From the IMG/VR virus record IMGVR_UViG_3300031853_000026: 20,000 nt of DNA. The stretch is one strand, 5' to 3'. Position 1 is the first letter of the stretch, and every line of letters begins with the position of its first letter. This document shows, one piece after another, positions 5,770-20,000 of the stretch. The position numbers were made by a program, and so were the translations under genes. Below the pieces are notes generated by a model. The model had not been told where the DNA came from, did not search any database, and worked only from the letters and a program-made list of their open reading frames with translations. The DNA comes from an uncultured virus (IMG/VR IMGVR_UViG_3300031853_000026) (Duplodnaviria; Heunggongvirae; Uroviricota; Caudoviricetes).

Positions 5770-6651
5770 ATGATACAGAAAATACCGATAATTTTCAGCA
5801 GAACGGATCTGAAGGTTGATACAAAGGTAAGTAAGAAAAATGACATTGGGGAATTCATATCAGTATTTAATAAACTGTATGAAAGCTCCGTTTACTACAC
5901 TTCTGATTTTCTTAATGTAATTGCTGCATTGGATTCTTTTTTGTGGGAATATGAAATGTGCGTTCAAAATAAAATTGATGTGGATGAATTTGAAAGAGAC
6001 ATTAAATTCTTAAATGAAGCACGTGTAAATGTTCCTGTTCCCTACAAAAGAAAAAATTTTGGATTGATAAAGAGAGTTGATGTAGATAATTCTGGTATAT
6101 TTCAGGAGTTCACAGTAGATGAATTATTCTACAAAGCTAGAGACGAAAAATCTGTAACTATATACCATTGTACATCTAAGTTAGGGAATATTAGCCTAAA
6201 CATAGAAACCTCCGGTACCTATACCTTAATAAAATCAGCTAAGACACTCATTGTGGACGAATCTGGAAAAAATCCATCTATTTATGTTGATTTTGTCAAG
6301 GATGCATTAGGCACTAAAGAAGAGCTCAGTAAATATATTCCTATATGGGATACATTGACTTACCCTGGTATCTATACTGGCTATATTGATTTTCTCAGAC
6401 AGATCAAGGATGATTCTTTCGATCCAAAAACAGCTGAAGTAGATTTGAATTTTTATGCAGATAAATTCAACAATGTCTTGAAATACCCAACAAGAATATA
6501 TAGGGGTGCTAAACTTTATCAGTACACATCTATTCTTTGTGAATTTATGTCGAAAGTAGTATGCCTCTGTAAAATTTCTATGGGAGATAAAGCACCAACT
6601 CCAACATTAGTTCTGAAAGATAATAAAGAATTTAGTTTCGAATGGAATTAA
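5770..6651 (+). CDS. Hypothetical protein, 293 aa (paralog family A)
   Basis: Long ORF with weak similarity to the next two genes. Confidence 0.85.
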   Translation: MIQKIPIIFSRTDLKVDTKVSKKNDIGEFISVFNKLYESSVYYTSDFLNVIAALDSFLWEYEMCVQNKIDVDEFERDIKFLNEARVNVPVPYKRKNFGLIKRVDVDNSGIFQEFTVDELFYKARDEKSVTIYHCTSKLGNISLNIETSGTYTLIKSAKTLIVDESGKNPSIYVDFVKDALGTKEELSKYIPIWDTLTYPGIYTGYIDFLRQIKDDSFDPKTAEVDLNFYADKFNNVLKYPTRIYRGAKLYQYTSILCEFMSKVVCLCKISMGDKAPTPTLVLKDNKEFSFEWN

Positions 6652-7523
6652 CTGATTCATACGTAATTAATTTTCCTAAGCCTGATGGTTTCGACAATAA
6701 ATCATTTTCCCCTCCGTTTCCAAGTAAGGAGGAAGGTATTAGAGAACTTTATAGAAGGTTCATATTAAATGTACTTCCAATATACGAAAAGATCTCACAG
6801 GATAACCCAGAAAAAAGAGTGAAGAATCATGTAATGAGAAATCTAGCTGACATATTTTACTCAAGGTGGGAACCTGAATACAATGGTAAAAATGGCGGTT
6901 TCTTGAAATGGTCTATGAGACAGTTTCCGGATAATTTATTCAGTGTAAAAGAATTCGGAGAAAATTCACATTACGAATACAATTACCTCGACTATTATAG
7001 TAACTGTATATTTGATCCCTTTTTCGATATACATAGTTTTTATGAAAGACATCAGTATTCTAAAGCAACCGGTACAAAACATTTCCTGTCTTTCATAGGA
7101 ATAGTTGATGATATCACAACAAAAATATTAATAAGAGAAGGATCCTCAACACCTAATGTAGAGATTACAAGCCCTAAGGGAGAAATACTTACTATATCTT
7201 CCAAGGAAGAATTTGATGAGATATGTAAGGGCATGTGTGATATGAATTGTGAGGCACAAACAAACTTATGTCTGAACTCAAAACTTCAAACGTGGGGTTT
7301 TAATACCGGAAGATTTCTTGATAGTATTCCGAGATCTTTTAAATTCAGTGAAGATGATCTTGAACTGATTAATAAGTTCCTCGGAGGGGGTGAAGATTCC
7401 CCAGTGTACACAAGCCTCTACTTGGATCGAATATTATCGAACCTGATAGCTATATCTCTTTATATTGATACAAAATTCATAATAACCGTAGAAAATAATA
7501 ACGTTAAATTAATACAAGTATGA
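6642..7523 (+). CDS. Hypothetical protein, 293 aa (paralog family A)
   Basis: Overlaps both neighbours; ISSKEEFDEIC resembles ISSNEEAQKIC of the next gene. Confidence 0.85.
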   Translation: MELTDSYVINFPKPDGFDNKSFSPPFPSKEEGIRELYRRFILNVLPIYEKISQDNPEKRVKNHVMRNLADIFYSRWEPEYNGKNGGFLKWSMRQFPDNLFSVKEFGENSHYEYNYLDYYSNCIFDPFFDIHSFYERHQYSKATGTKHFLSFIGIVDDITTKILIREGSSTPNVEITSPKGEILTISSKEEFDEICKGMCDMNCEAQTNLCLNSKLQTWGFNTGRFLDSIPRSFKFSEDDLELINKFLGGGEDSPVYTSLYLDRILSNLIAISLYIDTKFIITVENNNVKLIQV

Positions 7524-8257
7524 GTGTAAGTATAAAGCTCGACTTCTCTCTTAAAAAAGAGGAACGAAATAAAGAACTTCAGAGAATAATTTCTGATATG
7601 AATGATGACAGAAATCGAGATGATTACTTTTCTGCAAAGCATCATCTCGATTCTTTCGCAGTCGGTCATTTCAGCCCAAATTCATCTCGTAGTATTCGAT
7701 TTGATTACAAACGTGTTATCTCATCATTCGGAGTAGTTGGTCATAATCTGTTCCAAACACGAGATCTTGATTATAAGGTGAAATGGGACAACAAAACAAA
7801 GAGTGAAGTTATTACTTTTGTGGGTAAGCGCAATGATGTAACTCTTGTGATGAAGCTTACAAAAGAAAAAACATATTGCTCTAAGTTCGAAGCTTATTTG
7901 TGCGATGATTCAGGAGCTAATCCGATCTACTGTATCTCTTCTAATGAAGAAGCACAGAAAATCTGTAATACATATTGCAGACACGGATATGGAAGTACTA
8001 CTGAATTAAAGGAAAAGATCAATGACTTAGTTAAAGATCCTGTAAATCCTGTAAAAAAGGAGGGATTAGAGCAGTTTTTGGCTGATCTCTTCAATTACAG
8101 AATTCACGATTATGCACATCTTTTCAGAGAACAAATAGATCTCCTTCTAACATTCGTAGCGAGATCCGTATCATTGGATTATGACAGTGCTACGAGAACA
8201 ACGACAGCAAGAATAGAACTTCTCTCTAAAGAAAATATGAATTTAGCTCCAAAATAG
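7520..8257 (+). CDS. Hypothetical protein, 245 aa (paralog family A)
   Basis: ATGA overlap with the upstream gene. Confidence 0.85.
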   Translation: MSVSIKLDFSLKKEERNKELQRIISDMNDDRNRDDYFSAKHHLDSFAVGHFSPNSSRSIRFDYKRVISSFGVVGHNLFQTRDLDYKVKWDNKTKSEVITFVGKRNDVTLVMKLTKEKTYCSKFEAYLCDDSGANPIYCISSNEEAQKICNTYCRHGYGSTTELKEKINDLVKDPVNPVKKEGLEQFLADLFNYRIHDYAHLFREQIDLLLTFVARSVSLDYDSATRTTTARIELLSKENMNLAPK

Positions 8258-10855: not shown

Positions 10856-11533
10856 TTAGAACAATCTCATGCAGAGAGATTTAGCAACACTTGTTTGGTT
10901 GCCAAGACCAGTACGGTTCATGGCGTCCCTGTTGGCAAGGTTGTTGGTCTCAGCAGTGAGTCTGTTCCGCTGTTCCTCGAACTTCCTCTGGTTGTCCGCA
11001 GCAACAGTAGCTGTGGTTTTACCGAAATATCGGTTGTACAACCACACGCAGCCTAATGTTACTAACACGGATGCTGCGACGGTTATAATTATCGTCCAGC
11101 CCGGGTGTTTGATAATGAACTGTAATATTCCGTTCTTCATCCTCGCAAAGAAGCCGGGCTTTTCAGCTGGCTGTTGCGGGTTCTGAGCGGGTGCCGTTCC
11201 GGGGATTTGAGGTGCCACAGGAGTGGTGCCAGGAACCTGTACGCCCTGCTGGGCGAGGTTCTGCATCATCTGCTGCTGTTGCTGTGCGGTTCCAACTGCA
11301 ACGGTCTGGCCGTTTGCAAGACCAGCCTGTACATTGGGGTTGCTCAGCAACTGAACGAGCATGTTGGGATCGAGATTGATCGCCATGCCTGCAGGTGCAG
11401 TGCCTTGCTGCTGACCAGCGTTGGGGGTGGTTACTGTAACCTGGCCCTGAACGGGCTGCTGGTTGTTCTGCTGTGCGTTGTTGTTCTGTACGCCGGGAGT
11501 CTGTACGCCGGCATTGTTTACTTGTTCTGCCAT
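10856..11533 (-). CDS. Membrane-anchored protein with a Q/P/N-rich disordered N-terminus, 225 aa
   Basis: Low-complexity first ~125 aa, then one TM helix (WTIIITVAASVLVTLGCVWLY). GC-richer codons. Confidence 0.85.
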   Translation of the reverse strand: MAEQVNNAGVQTPGVQNNNAQQNNQQPVQGQVTVTTPNAGQQQGTAPAGMAINLDPNMLVQLLSNPNVQAGLANGQTVAVGTAQQQQQMMQNLAQQGVQVPGTTPVAPQIPGTAPAQNPQQPAEKPGFFARMKNGILQFIIKHPGWTIIITVAASVLVTLGCVWLYNRYFGKTTATVAADNQRKFEEQRNRLTAETNNLANRDAMNRTGLGNQTSVAKSLCMRLF

Positions 11534-13352: not shown

Positions 13353-14393
13353 ATGGGAAGCGAAGATACACACGGAATATCCACAACAATCGTGGATGAA
13401 GATGATGACAACCTTTTGGACATTTCTCCCGGAGAAGATGATAAAATTGAAGAAGAGATTATGAATAATAAATCAACTACATCTTCAGTAACACCAACCT
13501 CATCTCCATTTGGAAGTCCATCAAGCATTTATAATACACCAACAACACCATCTACAGGGCTTCCTTTTGGTAGTCCATCAACCCCTCAATGGAATTCTGG
13601 TATGTTTGGAGTATCAAATAATAACAATAACTTTGGTTCATCTTATACACCATCAACATCTATTTGGGGTACTAACAATAACTCAAATAATTATGGATGG
13701 GGAAGTAATAATAATTCTTCTCCTGGATGGTCATGGGGCAATAATAACAATAACTTCAACTCATTTAATAATTCGAGTAATTGGGGATCTGGTTGGAATA
13801 ATCACAACACCATGAAACCTGGTAATGCTCCGGTTATAAACAAGAGACTAGTGTTCTGTAGTTTCTTTGATACTATTGTATGTAGTTTGGGCTCATTCAA
13901 TAATGGTAGATTCACTATTATAAATCAAGTTCCATCTGATATATCTGACTTGTATATTAGAAAGGAAGTTTTATTTAAGATGAGTAGAATAACTGCAGAC
14001 GCTATTGTAATTATAGTTCCAAGAGAATTTATTAGGGGACTTGTATGTAATTCATCGCTAAATGAGAAAAGAGGAGATGATCTTGAAAGGGATATGAACA
14101 CAATCGTTAATTATCTAAGAATGGGTGTAATGACCTATATGAAGCATACAATATCAGATGCTAAATATTGTCAATTTATACTCGTTTCAGATGTAGATTA
14201 TAGGAATATCTCTAACATTATATGTGGAGAGCTTCAAACTATCAATTCAGTCTCAAACAACTTTTATACGAATGATAAAGTTGTGTTCCTAGGTGCCAAT
14301 GGTGGTGCTAATGGTTATGGATTGAATGATAAATTGATAGCCGAAACATGTAAAATTGATTTCTTAGATACTAATATATTATTGAATAGTTAG
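13353..14393 (+). CDS. Degenerate HAD-IIIA (PNK 3'-phosphatase-like) domain fused to an S/N/G/W-rich low-complexity N-terminus
   Basis: LVFCSFFDTIV, DLYIRKEV and VFLGANGG...NDKLIAETCKIDFLD align with the motifs of 16751-17959, but the catalytic aspartates are replaced. Confidence 0.6.
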   Translation: MGSEDTHGISTTIVDEDDDNLLDISPGEDDKIEEEIMNNKSTTSSVTPTSSPFGSPSSIYNTPTTPSTGLPFGSPSTPQWNSGMFGVSNNNNNFGSSYTPSTSIWGTNNNSNNYGWGSNNNSSPGWSWGNNNNNFNSFNNSSNWGSGWNNHNTMKPGNAPVINKRLVFCSFFDTIVCSLGSFNNGRFTIINQVPSDISDLYIRKEVLFKMSRITADAIVIIVPREFIRGLVCNSSLNEKRGDDLERDMNTIVNYLRMGVMTYMKHTISDAKYCQFILVSDVDYRNISNIICGELQTINSVSNNFYTNDKVVFLGANGGANGYGLNDKLIAETCKIDFLDTNILLNS

Positions 14394-16750: not shown

Positions 16751-17959
16751 ATGAGTGTAATTAATCTTGGTAATGGTCTTGCACAGGTCATTACCGGACC
16801 TGGAGTTCAAGTAATTCAGAACCCTACAGCAGCTGACGTAAAGAAGCTTATCCAACAAGCAAAAACAATGGCAGCAAATAGCGGTGGAACAGTAACGGTT
16901 CAGTCTGGTTCAGTTTGTGTAACTAACATACCACCACAAGTAGGTCAGACTACCACTACTACAACAGCACCTTCTTTTGGTCTTCCCAAAGCAGTAACCC
17001 CTACTCCATTGTCAGTACCTAATCCTATCATACCCAAAAAGAAGTATGAATATATGGTTGCTGATTTGGACGGTACATTGATCGACACAATATCTGGTAA
17101 TGTATTCCCGAAAGGCGTCTTTGATATGCGATTCAAATACGATGTTTTGGATGCCATCAAGAAATACAGTCCGAAAGTATTATTTGTCGTATCTAATCAA
17201 GCCGGAATTTCTAAGGGATTCGTCAAGGAAGACAGTTTCAAAGCAAAACTTGATTATGTAACTATGTCTCTAAGGGATTATCTCGGAATCAATGTCTATT
17301 CTGATTATTGTACAGCAGAAGACAACAACGATCCCCGTAGGAAGCCCAATACAGGCATGATAGATGATCTCGTAACAGCTCATATTCCGTTCTCATTGAG
17401 CAAATTCAAAGAGAAATGCTTGATGATTGGTGATGCTTCTGGAAAAGAAGCAAACGAAACACCAGACGGTAAGAAACAATTCTCGGATTCTGATAAGAAA
17501 TGTGCAGAGAATTTTGGGGTTGATTACATGGACGTTTGGGACTTCATTGAATCTGCAGATACAACAGCGGTTCTCGTTGAACACGATTTCTTGAGAAATT
17601 CAAAAAAGAAGAAGAAATTCGGCGTTGTTAGGCTCACATGGGATGGTGGCTATCAGGATCTCATAGACAATTGTAAGAAGACGATTGAGGATGTGCCTGG
17701 TAATATCTATTACGTAGCAGAATATGATAAATACTGGGATAAGAATATTCAGAAAAATAGTCCATACCACACCAATCCTGAATGGATTGACAAAATTCTG
17801 GACAAAGTTGGAATTACAGCTTCTTACAGAGTATTCAAGTCCACCCCTGTTGTAGATACTATTCTTTACATTCCTGATGCAGAGATAACGAAATTGTTGG
17901 ATGATGCGGAAATTTATGTCTCTCGCCCGATCAACAATTTTCTTGACGTATTAAAATAA
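16751..17959 (+). CDS. HAD-IIIA polynucleotide 3'-phosphatase (PNK3P-type) with a T/P-rich N-terminal extension and an extra C-terminal domain
   Basis: Motifs DLDGTLI, VVSNQAG, RKPNTGM and MIGDASG...FSDSDKKCAEN. Confidence 0.88.
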   Translation: MSVINLGNGLAQVITGPGVQVIQNPTAADVKKLIQQAKTMAANSGGTVTVQSGSVCVTNIPPQVGQTTTTTTAPSFGLPKAVTPTPLSVPNPIIPKKKYEYMVADLDGTLIDTISGNVFPKGVFDMRFKYDVLDAIKKYSPKVLFVVSNQAGISKGFVKEDSFKAKLDYVTMSLRDYLGINVYSDYCTAEDNNDPRRKPNTGMIDDLVTAHIPFSLSKFKEKCLMIGDASGKEANETPDGKKQFSDSDKKCAENFGVDYMDVWDFIESADTTAVLVEHDFLRNSKKKKKFGVVRLTWDGGYQDLIDNCKKTIEDVPGNIYYVAEYDKYWDKNIQKNSPYHTNPEWIDKILDKVGITASYRVFKSTPVVDTILYIPDAEITKLLDDAEIYVSRPINNFLDVLK

Positions 17960-17966
17960 TAACGAA

Positions 17967-18435
17967 ATGGAAAAGACAGTGACCCCTGTAACCCGCTATT
18001 TAGGTGACGAAGTTGTGCTCAATGTAAAACCAAGCGGTGTTGTGGAACATTCAGTAATTCTTAACTACGACTACCTCAAATTGATCTACCCGAATGATCA
18101 GAAAAAGTATGAGGAAGCTAAGCAAATTATTGAGAAATGCGTCCAAGAAAAATGGAGTGATGAGGAAGTTGTAGAACATTTCCAGAATCTCTTCGCTGAA
18201 AAAGTAGGAGAAATTGTTGGAACTGAACTCGAAAAACCGATAAACTCTTTCAAGGATTTGCCTGAAGAGATGCAAAAAAGACGTACACGAAGCGTGTGAA
18301 AACATCTGGAGGGACATTGCAAGAGCAGTAAATTCCTCTTGGTTGTATGACGTCTTTCTGTTGGCTGGTAAGGAAACACTTCTCATCGGTGATCCCCTCG
18401 TTCCACTGGACCGTAAAAAGCACATTGTTCTCTAA
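17967..18435 (+). CDS. Hypothetical protein interrupted by a +1 frameshift at an A6 run (0-frame ORF ends at 18299)
   Basis: Removing one A at 18274-18279 gives ...MQKDVHEACENIWRDIARAVNSSWLYDVFLLAGKETLLIGDPLVPLDRKKHIVL*, which stops just before the terminator. Confidence 0.65.
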
Positions 18436-18446
18436 TTAAAAATAAT

Positions 18447-18500
18447 AAAAAAAAATAACATATACAATTTCATTTAAGATTTTGTATATGTTATTTTTTT
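18447..18500 (+). terminator. Intrinsic, probably bidirectional, terminator
   Basis: Long inverted repeat A-run-TAACATATACAA / TTGTATATGTTA-T-run. Confidence 0.8.
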
Positions 18501-18601
18501 ACTCCAAAACTCATAAAACTCCGTAAAACAAGATCGAAATTCTAATAGTTGTATTGTCGGTTTTTAGAAAAGTTGTAAAAAAGCACCTTTCAAAAGCCAC
18601 A

Positions 18602-18617
18602 TGTTTCTAATATGTGA
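18602..18617 (+). promoter_or_regulatory. Putative promoter of the tRNA-ncRNA unit
   Basis: TGTTTCTAATATGTGA, with a second copy AAATTCTAATAGTTGT at 18537-18552. Confidence 0.5.
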
Positions 18618-18641
18618 ATGAAAATTCAAAGAAAAATATAT

Positions 18642-18714
<73 letters not shown>

Positions 18715-18719
18715 CAAAT

Positions 18720-19470
18720 AGTCAGCCCTCATGACTGAGTGGTTTTTAATCACTCATGGATAAACTGGGTAACCAGGATAAATGGATGTCTCGCCAAGGA
18801 TGTCCACTACCAGACCATGGGTAGCCATAGAAGGGATCGATGATGAATGCATATACTGGAGCTAGGTTTGAAGGCTCAGTTTTCAAAGCAGTATGTGTAG
18901 CTTCCTGTGATGGGAGTGAGGAGTTAGGGATAATTCCAGATAATCACGATGGTACTTGTACAAGACATAAGCAACCAAGTGCAAGTATTATTGAGTATTG
19001 AGGCTAAGATCTGAAACCCAGCTTAGTACAGATATATTCAAAGAGACAACTGAAGCAAAAGGGAGTCTCAGAGGGTGTCGTAATGGGGTTTCCCCAAAAG
19101 GGAGACAATTACAAAGAGGAGTCACCACATCCTCATTATTGGCGAAGCACGGACTTCATATTCCGTACATATTTACAAAAGTAAAATTATTAAATGCAAA
19201 AGTGTGACTCCACTCTTGCACAAAAGGCAGCTTATCCCTCTGTAATATGGGGGTGATCGGGAGTACCGCAAGAAAACCGATTGAAAAGTAGTTAATTAGC
19301 ATCATGGTAAGGGATGGAACCCTGAATGCTCCCAAGGCAACTAGGTGTGAAAGATGAAATTATGAGTGCTTGAGTAAAAGTTTGGTCTGAACTTATCAGA
19401 TCGCTGCTGAGCTTTACATGTAGAAATATATGTGTGACTGACTGAGGCCAACCTCAGGAAATAAGCTCAT
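18720..19470 (+). ncRNA. Large ornate structured RNA, ROOL-like (GOLLD-class is the alternative)
   Basis: ORF-poor, GC-richer stretch directly 3' of a tRNA, with at least 12 helices whose G-U pairs work on the + strand, GNRA loops and a terminator at the end. Short purine-rich motifs resemble ROOL as I recall it; no search was run. Confidence 0.7.
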
Positions 19471-19471
19471 T

Positions 19472-19503
19472 AACAACCCGATAGTCTCAGGGTTGTTTTT
19501 TTT
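19472..19503 (+). terminator. Intrinsic terminator closing the tRNA-ncRNA transcript
   Basis: Stem AACAACCC/GGGTTGTT followed by a T-run. Confidence 0.75.
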
Positions 19504-19512
19504 GTTCCTCTT

Positions 19513-19528
19513 AAAACCTTATAAATGA
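19513..19528 (+). promoter_or_regulatory. Putative promoter motif AAAACCTTATAAATGA
   Basis: The 15-mer CCTCTTAAAACCTTA (19507-19521) is identical to the minus-strand site at 4033-4047. Confidence 0.65.
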
Positions 19529-19575
19529 ATTACAATTAATTTTTTTTTTATTAACAATTTAAAAACACATAAAAA

Positions 19576-20000
19576 ATGGCAACAAACATTATTCTTTCAA
19601 AAGAACAGCTCCACAAGTGGTTCTCGTATGAGAACCCCGAACTTCAAGGCAAGCTTGATGAATACCCAATTCTCAACGATTCAGCCCCCATCTTCATTGG
19701 TGTAAGGGGATCGGTTGCTCAGGGATTGAACACATCGGACTCCGACACTGACTGGGTGACAATACTCTACAATCCCATGTGGTTGATCTGGCCAGACGCT
19801 GGAGTCGACACAGTAGAGGACGAAGATCGCGACCACCTCTTCTGGAGCATTACAAGGTTCATTCAGCTCCTCGAAAAGGGTGACATCAACGCAGTAGAGA
19901 CGGCTCATATACAAAAGAGCTCCTGCTGGGATGATGCCAAGTGGATCTTCATGAATCCTGAAGCCTTCATTACAAAGAGATTCCTGACATCTGTGTCTGG
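19576..20000 (+). CDS. Pol-beta superfamily nucleotidyltransferase, RlaP/YcgL-like (partial)
   Basis: Hand translation MATNIILSKEQLHKW...GVRGSVAQGLNTSDSDTDW...ITRFIQLLEKGDINAVE shows the GS..GL.T..SDxD signature. Open to the window end. Confidence 0.85.
   Translation, partial: MATNIILSKEQLHKWFSYENPELQGKLDEYPILNDSAPIFIGVRGSVAQGLNTSDSDTDWVTILYNPMWLIWPDAGVDTVEDEDRDHLFWSITRFIQLLEKGDINAVETAHIQKSSCWDDAKWIFMNPEAFITKRFLTSVS

What the first reader, a model, noticed from the sequence alone, without database searches (positions are those of the whole stretch)
18899..19503. ROOL-like giant structured RNA downstream of tRNA-fMet
Seen: about 600 nt with no credible ORF and dense + strand pairing. Helices include GGTACTTGTAC/GTGCAAGTATT (18951-18989), GTAAT..GTTTCCC/GGGAGAC..ATTAC (19080-19112), long-range GGAGTCAC/GTGACTCC (19118-19125/19204-19211), ATCGG/CCGAT, AGCAT/ATGCT, GGTCTGA/TCAGATC (19384-19402), TACATGTA-GAAA-TATATGTG and CTGAGG/CCTCAG. 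A candidate closing helix joins ~18899-18913 to ~19455-19475. Known: ROOL and GOLLD RNAs are tRNA-adjacent, phage-associated large RNAs of unknown function. Inference: the motifs GCAAGTAT..TGAGTA, CCACATC, TTGAAAAGTAG (19281), GTGTGAAAG (19345) and AGTAAAAGTT (19373) occur in the order I recall for ROOL. This is therefore a divergent ROOL or a new sister class, in a probable Bacteroidota jumbo phage.
Basis: partly seen in the sequence, partly recalled or inferred. Interest (0 to 1): 0.85.

Follow-up and report, generated by a model that had tools for sequence, protein, structure and literature searches.

The report
Divergent GOLLD RNA of rumen phage
This gene-free stretch encodes a large, intricately folded non-coding RNA of the known GOLLD family (not ROOL), in a divergent form carried next to a tRNA-Met gene by giant cattle-rumen phages; like all GOLLD RNAs, its function is still unknown.

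Summary
The structured RNA is real, but it is GOLLD, not ROOL, and it is longer than reported: about 18716-19503 (+), roughly 785 nt, starting right after tRNA-Met.

- **Family.** Rfam's GOLLD model (RF02032) matches 19070-19493 end to end at E 2.4e-30 and 111.7 bits. That is below the curated cut-off of 150, so a standard scan shows only the tRNA. No ROOL match appears at E<=10.
- **Relatives.** Two lineages at 71-72% identity were found, in a 119.6-kb metagenome contig and a 210-kb viral contig. They score 91.6 and 88.2 bits.
- **Covariation.** On a three-sequence alignment, 45 of 189 pairs change on both sides while staying paired, against 0-3 when partners are slid. This includes two pseudoknot helices that also covary in canonical GOLLDs.
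Seven of nine hold.
- **5' domain.** It shares only a short 5' motif with canonical GOLLDs, and the central junction of the 3' domain is rearranged.
- **RNA libraries.** Contigs of 604-727 nt from three cattle-gut RNA libraries span the RNA.
- **Host genome.** The window's genes match the 210-kb phage, which supports a jumbo phage.

Verdict: a divergent variant of a known family, of moderate interest.

The parts
18642..18715 (+). tRNA-Met (anticodon CAT), initiator-like, directly upstream of the RNA
   Evidence: Rfam tRNA 67 bits. ARAGORN tRNA-Met CAT. U1-U72 mismatch and A11:U24 read from the sequence. The sister lineage also has tRNA-Met upstream.
18716..19503 (+). Whole GOLLD-family RNA, about 785 nt. 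The 5' end is approximate (18716-18740); the 3' end is at the U-run.
   Evidence: Aligns with L154 and L175 over its whole length at 71-72% identity. 45 of 189 pairs change on both sides. RNA-library contigs cover 18728-19417, 18736-19461 and 18740-19339. Fold z -5.4.
18716..19069 (+). 5' domain, about 354 nt: about 14 helices and a local pseudoknot (UUUGAA 18867-72 with UUCAAA 18882-87)
   Evidence: In one search, helices 1-14 hold 23 pairs changed on both sides. 68.8% identity to L154. No significant match to canonical 5' domains with model R1.
18760..18787 (+). Conserved 5' motif AUAAAC - stem/GNRA/stem - GGAUAAA-U-GGAU, shared with canonical GOLLDs
   Evidence: These columns are invariant in the alignment of window, L154, L004 and L033. 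The same motif lies near the 5' end of the env-38 construct in the supplement of PMC12286853. The stem covaries: CUGG/CCAG versus CCCA/UGGG.
18951..18990 (+). Hairpin with a conserved 17-nt loop (18962-18978, ..CAUAAGCAACCAA)
   Evidence: Ten pairs kept, three with one-sided changes (helix 10). The loop is nearly invariant in L154 and L175. Contigs of more distant RNAs in two RNA libraries share only 18957-18992.
19070..19493 (+). 3' domain: full-length match to Rfam GOLLD RF02032
   Evidence: 111.7 bits, E 2.4e-30, model positions 1-416 of 416, gathering score 150. 72.6% identity to L154.
19118..19211 (+). Pseudoknot helix GGAGUCAC (19118-25) with GUGACUCC (19204-11). It closes the variable linker (19135-19203) and crosses the first Rfam helix.
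   Evidence: Two pairs changed on both sides in L154 (GUGGUCAC/GUGACCAC, helix 17). L004 (AGGUAAC/GUUACCU) and L033 (GGUGGAC/GUCCAUC) are complementary at the same place. The linker is only 50.7% identical.
19212..19375 (+). Long-range helix ACUCUUGCAC (19212-21) with GUGCUUGAGU (19366-75), enclosing the central junction
   Evidence: Rfam consensus helix. Four of its 10 pairs change on both sides in the three-sequence alignment (helix 19).
19226..19408 (+). Second pseudoknot: GGCAGC (19226-31) with GCUGCU (19403-08)
   Evidence: L154 has AAUGGC/GCCAUU. Three pairs changed on both sides (helix 20). L004 (GGUGAC/GUCACU) and L033 (GGUGCG/CGCAUU) are also complementary.
19254..19283 (+). Hairpin UGAUCGG/CCGAUUG with a conserved 16-nt loop GAGUACCGCAAGAAAA, replacing the canonical inner stem
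   Evidence: Four of 7 pairs changed on both sides and 3 on one side (helix 22). The inner Rfam stem is mismatched in the window and in L154.
19472..19503 (+). Terminal hairpin with the conserved loop GAUAGUCUCA, followed by U8: the last GOLLD hairpin, which looks like an intrinsic terminator
   Evidence: -10.7 kcal/mol, z -3.8. Matches the end of the Rfam model, GUAaUCUCA. Identical in L154; one loop change in L175.
16751..17959 (+). Upstream gene with a polynucleotide kinase 3'-phosphatase (PNK3P) domain; this neighbourhood is conserved
   Evidence: Pfam PF08645, E 1.7e-19. A homologue with 48% identity lies about 2.8 kb upstream of the sister RNA in the 210-kb contig.
19576..19998 (+). Downstream gene (cut by the window end): RlaP-type nucleotidyltransferase; this neighbourhood is conserved
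   Evidence: Pfam PF10127, E 4e-5, 23.9 bits against a cut-off of 23. PHROG 388 nucleotidyltransferase, E 3.3e-11. A homologue with 38% identity lies about 1.3 kb downstream of the sister RNA.

Best explanation
**What it is.** Positions about 18716-19503 (+) encode a divergent member of the GOLLD family of giant ornate phage RNAs. It is carried by an uncultured large phage of the cattle rumen.

**Shown:**
- A two-domain RNA of about 785 nt.
- Its 3' domain has the GOLLD architecture: the first three helices, a variable linker closed by a pseudoknot helix, a long-range helix, a second pseudoknot, and the terminal hairpin with the conserved UCUCA loop.
- Its helices covary with two sister sequences.
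- Long contigs of it occur in RNA libraries.

**Inferred:**
- In the window it is probably made as one precursor with tRNA-Met, because no terminator lies between them and homology to the sister RNA starts within about 10 nt of the tRNA end. It would then be released by tRNA 3'-end processing.
- In the sister lineage, a strong hairpin plus U-run and a spacer of about 140 nt separate the two genes, so there the RNA probably has its own promoter.
- Transcription would end at the terminal hairpin plus U8.
- By homology with the solved GOLLD env-38, the RNA would assemble on its own into a closed homo-oligomeric shell (a 14-mer in env-38). The 3' domains would form the ring, the 5' domains the caps, and the variable linker would lie inside. 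I put this step at about 0.5.

**Open.** The biological role is unknown for the whole family. The constant neighbours (tRNA-Met, a 3'-phosphatase, an RlaP-type nucleotidyltransferase) point towards tRNA or RNA-end metabolism during infection, but that is speculation.
For: **Family match**
- Full-length GOLLD match at E 2.4e-30. The sister RNAs match at E 2.3e-24 and 1.3e-24.
- No other large-RNA family appears at E<=10.

**Covariation**
- Window against L154: 177 pairs, 98.3% of cells paired, 38 pairs changed on both sides. Slid controls give 0-3; 0 of 500 shuffles reach the observed value.
- With L175 added: 189 pairs, 45 changed on both sides, again 0-3 when slid.
- Both pseudoknot helices are also complementary, with different letters, in the canonical GOLLDs L004 (287.3 bits) and L033 (284.6 bits).

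**Population variants**
- 19239 U>A occurs together with 19250 G>U in two runs, turning a U-G pair of an Rfam helix into A-U.
- 19072 A>G turns an A-U pair into G-U.

**Family traits**
- The linker is 50.7% identical against 72.6% for the 3' domain. This fits the unresolved variable linker of env-38 (PMC12286853, section 7).
- The 5' motif AUAAAC-hairpin-GGAUAAA is shared with L004, L033 and env-38.
- tRNA-Met lies directly upstream, as reported for env-38 and as seen in L004.
- Contigs of 691, 727 and 604 nt from three RNA libraries of three studies span both domains. Six RNA runs hold 47-72% of the stretch's words.
- The small ORFs are not conserved.

**Phage context**.
Against: - The score (111.7 bits) is below Rfam's curated cut-off of 150, and canonical GOLLDs score about 285.
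- The outer 5-bp helix of the central junction in the Rfam model has no counterpart, the next 4-bp helix is badly matched, and the inner stem capped by CGCAA is mismatched.
- A model of the first 90 nt of the 5' domain finds nothing significant in L004 or L033. The best hit has E 0.41 and is in a shifted register.
- blastn sees no similarity to canonical GOLLDs.
- Covariation rests on three distinct sequences from only two lineages. The 5' structure was derived from those same sequences, so the percentage paired is biased upward.
- Contigs cannot show the strand, the ends or the level of an RNA, and RNA libraries can contain DNA.
- Nothing here tests oligomer formation.
Confidence: 0.85

Rival explanations
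1. It is a divergent ROOL RNA or a sister class of ROOL.
For: It has the same lifestyle as ROOL: a large ornate RNA, next to a tRNA, in a phage of the rumen, the habitat ROOL is named for (PMC12286853 passages).
Against: No ROOL match at E<=10 when all 4227 Rfam families were scanned with lax filters over 1 kb, whereas GOLLD matches end to end at E 2.4e-30. The two-domain layout with an internal variable linker is the GOLLD layout. [quoted passage not shown]
Confidence: 0.02
2. It is a chimera or separate class. A GOLLD-type 3' domain is joined to an essentially unrelated 5' domain, with a remodelled central junction, so it may form a different assembly (or none) and do a different job from canonical GOLLD.
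For: - The 5' block model finds no significant match in canonical GOLLDs.
- Scores are 88-112 bits against about 285.
- The central junction helices are missing or shifted. An alternative 4-bp helix, CAUC 19300-03 with GAUG 19353-56, is kept instead.
- In env-38 the caps of the cage are built by 5' domains, so a different 5' domain could change the oligomer.
Against: - The 5' region of GOLLD is known to be the less conserved part.
- The AUAAAC-hairpin-GGAUAAA motif near the 5' end, and islands such as GUACAG and UGUAG, are shared.
- The 5' domain length (about 354 nt) is close to that of env-38 (420 nt).
Confidence: 0.1
3. It is not one RNA. Instead it is a tRNA trailer plus a long structured 5' leader, or several small RNAs, regulating the downstream nucleotidyltransferase gene.
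For: The RNA lies between a tRNA and a same-strand gene that starts 73 nt after the U-run. That gene family stays downstream in the sister phage.
Against: - A hairpin plus U8 ends the RNA before the gene.
- In the sister lineage another 204-codon ORF lies between the RNA and the homologous gene.
- Single RNA-library contigs of 604-727 nt bridge both domains.
- The family match covers the whole 3' domain.
Confidence: 0.03

Closest known systems
GOLLD RNA (Rfam RF02032; the env-38 cryo-EM structure in Kretsch et al. 2025, PMC12286853)
   Same: - Size class: about 785 nt against 833 nt.
- Two domains, with a conserved 3' domain that matches the whole Rfam model.
- An internal variable linker closed by a pseudoknot helix, a second pseudoknot, and a terminal hairpin with the UCUCA loop.
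- The AUAAAC-hairpin-GGAUAAA motif near the 5' end.
- Phage origin, and tRNA-Met directly upstream.
   Different: - 88-112 bits for the three clade members against about 285 for two canonical examples; all three fall below the curated cut-off of 150.
- The outer helices of the central junction are absent or shifted.
- A canonical inner stem is replaced by a conserved 16-nt loop.
- Most of the 5' domain is not alignable by blastn or by a small covariance model.
- The habitat is the cattle rumen, in a jumbo-phage lineage.
ROOL RNA (rumen-originating, ornate, large)
   Same: A large ornate RNA of phages and prophages near tRNA genes, found in the rumen. Its function is unknown, and it forms RNA-only cages.
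   Different: No sequence or structure match. ROOL is one intertwined domain, whereas this RNA has two separable domains as GOLLD does.
Canonical GOLLDs of huge phages (LR745206.1 = L004; LR756502.1 = L181; IMG/VR 207-kb contig = L033)
   Same: They sit in very large phage genomes among tRNA genes. In L004 the RNA directly follows an initiator-like tRNA-Met.
   Different: These are env-38-like, with 5' domains of about 470-540 nt and scores of 284.6 and 287.3 bits for L033 and L004 (L181 was not scored). L033 and L181 have no tRNA-Met called upstream.

Membership tests
GOLLD (RF02032) | Statistically significant, full-length match to the family covariance model | tested here: met
   Window 19070-19493: E 2.4e-30, model 1-416/416. 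L154: E 2.3e-24. L175 record: E 1.3e-24.
GOLLD (RF02032) | Score at or above Rfam's curated gathering cut-off of 150 bits (an operational threshold, not a structural feature) | tested here: not met
   111.7, 91.6 and 88.2 bits. The gathering-mode scan of the window lists only the tRNA. I treat this as a sign of divergence, not of non-homology.
GOLLD (RF02032) | Helices of the conserved 3' domain present and supported by covariation | tested here: met
   In one search, helices 15-30 hold 22 pairs changed on both sides. Exceptions: the outer 5-bp junction helix is absent and the next 4-bp helix is shifted.
GOLLD (RF02032) | Pseudoknots of the 3' domain | tested here: met
   Two crossing helices (19118-25/19204-11 and 19226-31/19403-08) covary within the clade and are complementary in L004 and L033. 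I could not map them onto the pseudoknots named in PMC12286853 because the figure is not held.
GOLLD (RF02032) | Variable, poorly conserved linker inside the 3' region | tested here: met
   19135-19203 is 50.7% identical to L154, against 72.6% for the 3' domain. Population variants cluster there.
GOLLD (RF02032) | A less conserved 5' domain of several hundred nt, homologous to that of other GOLLDs | tested here: inconclusive
   A structured 354-nt 5' domain exists, and a motif of about 28 nt is shared with L004, L033 and env-38. However, model R1 gives no significant hit in L004 or L033 (best E 0.41).
GOLLD (RF02032) | Encoded by phages or prophages, often beside tRNA genes | tested here: met
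   tRNA-Met ends at 18715. Phage-type genes. Kin of a 210-kb viral contig.
GOLLD (RF02032) | Self-assembly into a closed homo-oligomeric RNA cage (14-mer in env-38) | not testable with these tools
   Known only for env-38 (PMC12286853 section 7). It needs in-vitro RNA and cryo-EM or mass photometry.
ROOL | Match to the Rfam ROOL covariance model | tested here: not met
   No ROOL row among the 4 matches at E<=10 on 18600-19600, both strands, all 4227 families.

The most novel reading that the evidence does not exclude
The rumen clade may be more than a diverged copy. It could be the RNA component of a conserved phage module, in the order 3'-phosphatase (PNK3P) - initiator-like tRNA-Met - GOLLD - RlaP-type nucleotidyltransferase. 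That order is kept across two lineages only 71-72% identical in the RNA.

On this reading the RNA would act with RNA-end-healing enzymes on tRNAs during infection. For example, it could shelter or present phage tRNA against host anticodon nucleases. If true, this would give GOLLD its first functional context. The remodelled junction and 5' domain could also give a cage of different size or symmetry.
Probability: 0.1. Interest if true: 0.75.

Novelty: new variant of a known kind. Interest (0 to 1): 0.4.

Why it matters
GOLLD is one of the largest bacterial or phage RNAs without a known function, and its only solved member forms an RNA-only 14-mer cage.

- **Undercounting.** This clade shows that the family reaches further than the curated Rfam threshold detects. 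All three members score 88-112 bits, so family censuses miss them. One member was even missed at E<=0.01 when 6 kb was scanned.
- **Range.** It extends the family to giant phages of the cattle rumen.
- **Natural experiment.** The clade keeps the ring-forming 3' core and both pseudoknots, while changing the central junction and most of the cap-forming 5' domain.
- **Material to work with.** The RNA is held in 20 listed runs from 16 studies, mostly of cattle gut, six of them RNA libraries. Expression, ends and partners can therefore be studied in existing data.
- **A lead on function.** The conserved neighbours (tRNA-Met, a 3'-phosphatase, an RlaP-type nucleotidyltransferase) give a testable hint.

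Tried and rejected
**Searches for relatives that led nowhere**
- Protein route: the PNK3P protein against IMG/VR found no relative.
- Exact 19-mer from the 3' domain against IMG/VR: 0 loci.
- Degenerate 5' motif against IMG/VR: 81 loci, of which only L033 is a GOLLD, and a canonical one. The rest are chance matches in coding sequence.
- Second 5' motif: 66 loci, none similar by blastn.
- 3' motif: 0 loci in IMG/VR and 14 in genome contigs, none similar. That pattern missed L175 because of one loop change.
- blastn of the window against 50,697 phage records matched only the tRNA.

**Structures set aside**
- The MAFFT alignment of the window with canonical 3' domains (A1) was out of register, so I did not use it.
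- RNAalifold's long-range closing pairs (columns 28-33/804-809 and 373-389/779-801) conflict with the Rfam helices. I replaced them in the curated structure.
- Model R1 of the 5' block against L004, L033 and 30 decoy loci gave nothing significant.
- AUAAGC 18967-72 and GCUUAU 19230-35 are complementary and invariant. The pairing overlaps the second pseudoknot and is not kept in L033, so it remains only an idea.
- The sigma-70 promoter and terminator scans gave nothing above shuffles.

**Read cover**
- In runs X2 and X18 the protein genes beside the RNA have no cover. In X20 they have only short contigs, while DNA run X3 covers them.
- The RNA contigs start at 18728, 18736 and 18740, where a DNA contig runs on. 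This is at most a weak hint of a 5' end.

**Other**
- No whole genome is held for the window.
- The scan's own notes hold nothing on this sequence.
Full report
**Observation.** The window holds one tRNA, tRNA-Met (CAT), at 18642-18715. The next long ORF starts at 19576. The stretch between them, 18716-19503, folds at -237 kcal/mol. Twenty dinucleotide-preserving shuffles give -203.2 +/- 6.2 (z -5.4, none as good). The short ORFs inside it are broken by stops or frameshifts in the closest relative. The one exception is a 46-codon minus-strand frame over the most conserved helices.

**Family.** A standard Rfam scan of the whole window at gathering thresholds lists only the tRNA. With E-value thresholds on 18600-19600, GOLLD (RF02032) matches 19070-19493. 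The score is 111.7 bits at E 2.4e-30, and all 416 model positions are covered. The family's gathering score is 150. The only other rows are the tRNA and two chance-level hits with E above 4. ROOL does not appear at E<=10. The Rfam model covers only the conserved 3' half of GOLLD. According to Kretsch et al. 2025 (PMC12286853; passages and section 7 read):
- GOLLD RNAs often exceed 800 nt.
- They are encoded by phages and prophages near tRNA genes.
- The solved example, env-38, lies downstream of a Met-tRNA and forms a 14-mer cage.

**Relatives.** blastn against 50,697 phage records matched only the tRNA. Several motif scans of IMG/VR and of GTDB genomes gave only chance hits. They did turn up one canonical GOLLD, L033, at 284.6 bits. 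A second canonical GOLLD, L004 in the 635-kb phage LR745206.1, scores 287.3 bits and directly follows a tRNA-Met.

The lead to true relatives came from laying public runs. Contigs in two RNA libraries shared only 18957-18992 with the window and carried different flanks. A motif built from that region found two metagenome contigs, L154 (119.6 kb) and L158. They are identical over the RNA and 72% identical to the window over 805 nt. A further motif found L175 in a 210,316-bp IMG/VR contig. It is 95% identical to L154 and 71% to the window. Their GOLLD scores are 91.6 bits (E 2.3e-24) and 88.2 bits (E 1.3e-24). L154 was missed altogether at E<=0.01 when 6 kb was scanned. The three sequences thus form a clade that standard annotation does not see.

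**Structure and covariation.** For the 3' domain I took the Rfam helices. I added a helix that closes the linker, and for the 5' domain I used the local helices from RNAalifold.
- Window against L154: 177 pairs, 98.3% of cells paired, and 38 pairs changed on both sides. Slid partners give 0-3, and 0 of 500 shuffles reach the observed value.
- With L175 and two more pairings found by a complementarity search: 189 pairs in 30 helices, 45 changed on both sides, again 0-3 when slid.
- Caveat: there are three sequences from only two lineages, and the 5' structure was derived from them. The percentage paired is therefore biased. The count of two-sided changes against the slid controls is the informative figure.

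Two of the helices cross others, so they are pseudoknots absent from the Rfam structure line.
- GGAGUCAC 19118-25 pairs with GUGACUCC 19204-11. This helix closes the linker and crosses the first helix.
- GGCAGC 19226-31 pairs with GCUGCU 19403-08. This helix crosses the long-range helix 19212-21/19366-75.
- Both are complementary, with different letters, in L154, L004 and L033.

Natural variants in the laid runs agree with the structure. 19239 U>A and 19250 G>U occur together in two runs and turn a U-G pair into A-U. 19072 A>G turns an A-U pair into G-U. The linker 19135-19203 is 50.7% identical to L154, against 72.6% for the 3' domain and 68.8% for the 5' domain.

Seven of nine are kept. AGCAT/ATGCT keeps only 2 of 5 pairs in the relatives. 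The proposed closing helix remains complementary (GAUGGG 18909-14 with CUCAUU 19466-71), but it has no compensatory change. It also overlaps a 5' hairpin and an Rfam helix.

**Differences from canonical GOLLD.**
- In the Rfam alignments of both the window and L154, the outer 5-bp helix of the central junction is deleted and the next 4-bp helix is poorly matched.
- A 4-bp helix, CAUC 19300-03 with GAUG 19353-56, built partly from inserted bases, is kept instead.
- The canonical inner stem capped by CGCAA is mismatched. In its place stands a covarying 7-bp stem with a conserved 16-nt loop, GAGUACCGCRAGRAAA.

**The 5' domain.** It is about 354 nt, against 420 nt in env-38 and about 540 nt in L004.
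- Shared with L004 and L033: the motif AUAAAC-stem-GNRA-stem-GGAUAAA at 18760-18787 and a few short islands.
- The same motif stands about 24 nt into the env-38 construct printed in the paper's supplement.
- A covariance model of the first 90 nt found nothing significant in L004 or L033 (best E 0.41, shifted register).
- Homology of most of the 5' domain therefore remains open.

**Ends and transcription.** Homology with L154 begins within about 10 nt of the tRNA's 3' end. Contigs from three RNA libraries of three studies cover 18728-19417 (691 nt, no mismatch), 18736-19461 (727 nt, from a library of 33 million letters) and 18740-19339 (604 nt). Each bridges both domains. Contigs cannot prove transcription, strand or ends. 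Their similar starts, where a DNA contig runs on, are only a weak hint. The RNA ends in the conserved last GOLLD hairpin followed by U8 (-10.7 kcal/mol, z -3.8). In L154 a strong hairpin plus U-run (-22 kcal/mol, z -4.9) and an A-rich spacer separate tRNA-Met from the RNA. Co-transcription with the tRNA is thus likely in the window but not obligatory for the clade.

**Genome context.**
- Pfam and PHROGs give phage-type functions for a minority of the 19 ORFs tested. Five reach a Pfam cut-off and four have a PHROG hit. They include a topoisomerase II/gyrase A-like protein, a nucleoside deoxyribosyltransferase-like protein and a T5orf172 protein.
- Directly flanking the RNA are a PNK3P 3'-phosphatase-domain protein and an RlaP-type nucleotidyltransferase.
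- The 210-kb viral contig, estimated by CheckV at 56% complete, encodes a topoisomerase-like protein 72% identical over full length. It lies about 19 kb from its GOLLD, on the opposite strand, as in the window.
- The same contig has a PNK3P domain (48% identity) about 2.8 kb upstream, tRNA-Pro and tRNA-Met directly upstream, and an RlaP-like gene (38% identity) about 1.3 kb downstream.
- The window's phage is therefore kin to a phage of more than 200 kb, and the neighbourhood of the RNA is conserved.
- The nearest PNK3P domains in named phages are in human-gut and crAss-like phages, at 45-49% identity. This fits a Bacteroidota host but does not prove one.
- The stretch is held by 20 listed runs from 16 studies, mostly cattle-gut metagenomes.

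**Mechanism.** Shown: a two-domain, pseudoknotted RNA of about 785 nt and GOLLD architecture, present in RNA libraries. Inferred:
- It is released from a tRNA-Met precursor in the window.
- Transcription terminates at the last hairpin.
- By homology with env-38, it self-assembles into a closed homo-oligomeric shell with the linker inside. I put this at about 0.5, because the cap-forming 5' domain and a junction differ.

The role of the RNA is unknown, as for the whole family. The conserved RNA-end-healing neighbours and the tRNA-Met suggest a link to tRNA metabolism during infection. I rate that at about 0.1.

**Literature.**
- Full-text searches for GOLLD with ROOL listed 15 of 18 papers.
- A search for GOLLD alone was dominated by an author name.
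- A search for 'GOLLD RNA' together with rumen, huge phage, jumbo, Prevotella or Bacteroidetes listed no paper holding the first term among the 20 shown.
- So I found no description of a rumen GOLLD clade.
- I did not see the GOLLD alignment supplied with PMC12286853 (Supplemental File 3). Weinberg et al. 2009 is cited from recall. Of Weinberg et al. 2017 I saw only the search listing.
- Earlier notes of this scan mention other large RNAs beside phage tRNA-Met genes on other DNA, and none on this sequence.

**Verdict.** This is a divergent GOLLD clade of rumen jumbo phages: a new variant of a known kind, of moderate interest.

Noticed in passing
L004 720-822 and 1915-2017 (LR745206.1): Two 103-nt direct repeats, 98% alike and 1195 nt apart, flank the tRNA-Met plus canonical GOLLD module of this 635-kb phage. 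By eye they look like tRNA-like genes with inserts, but ARAGORN calls no tRNA there. They could mark a cassette or a duplicated split tRNA.
   Followed up: partly
window 16751-19998; G001 118309-123611: The gene order PNK3P-domain protein, tRNA-Met, GOLLD, RlaP-type nucleotidyltransferase is kept in two phage lineages whose RNAs are only 71-72% identical. In the sister lineage there are extra ORFs and a tRNA-Pro in between.
   Followed up: partly
window 18835-18877; L154 1590-1643: A C-box-like GAUGAUGA lies in an invariant long-range helix of the 5' domain. It draws chance-level snoRNA-family hits in both the window (E 5.2) and L154 (E 7.3). It may be a kink-turn-like motif. Not tested.
   Followed up: no
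L154 and L158, 6 kb against 971 nt: The same GOLLD was not reported at E<=0.01 when 6 kb was scanned, but scored 91.6 bits (E 2.3e-24) when 971 nt was scanned. The speed filters hide divergent GOLLDs, so earlier 'no Rfam match' verdicts on similar RNAs may need re-checking on short stretches.
   Followed up: yes
tRNA-Met upstream of GOLLD: window, L154/L175, L004; not L033, not L181: A tRNA-Met lies directly upstream in 3 of the 5 GOLLD lineages looked at here. By eye it has initiator-like features, and the list of determinants is recalled. env-38 is reported to be downstream of a Met-tRNA. The link is frequent but not universal.
   Followed up: partly
window 5770-8257 (+), 10856-11533 (-), 13353-14393 (+): Three back-to-back ORFs with overlapping ends have no Pfam or PHROG hit. 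The window also holds a Q-rich protein (not among the 19 scanned) and an N/S/T-rich low-complexity protein with no hit.
   Followed up: no
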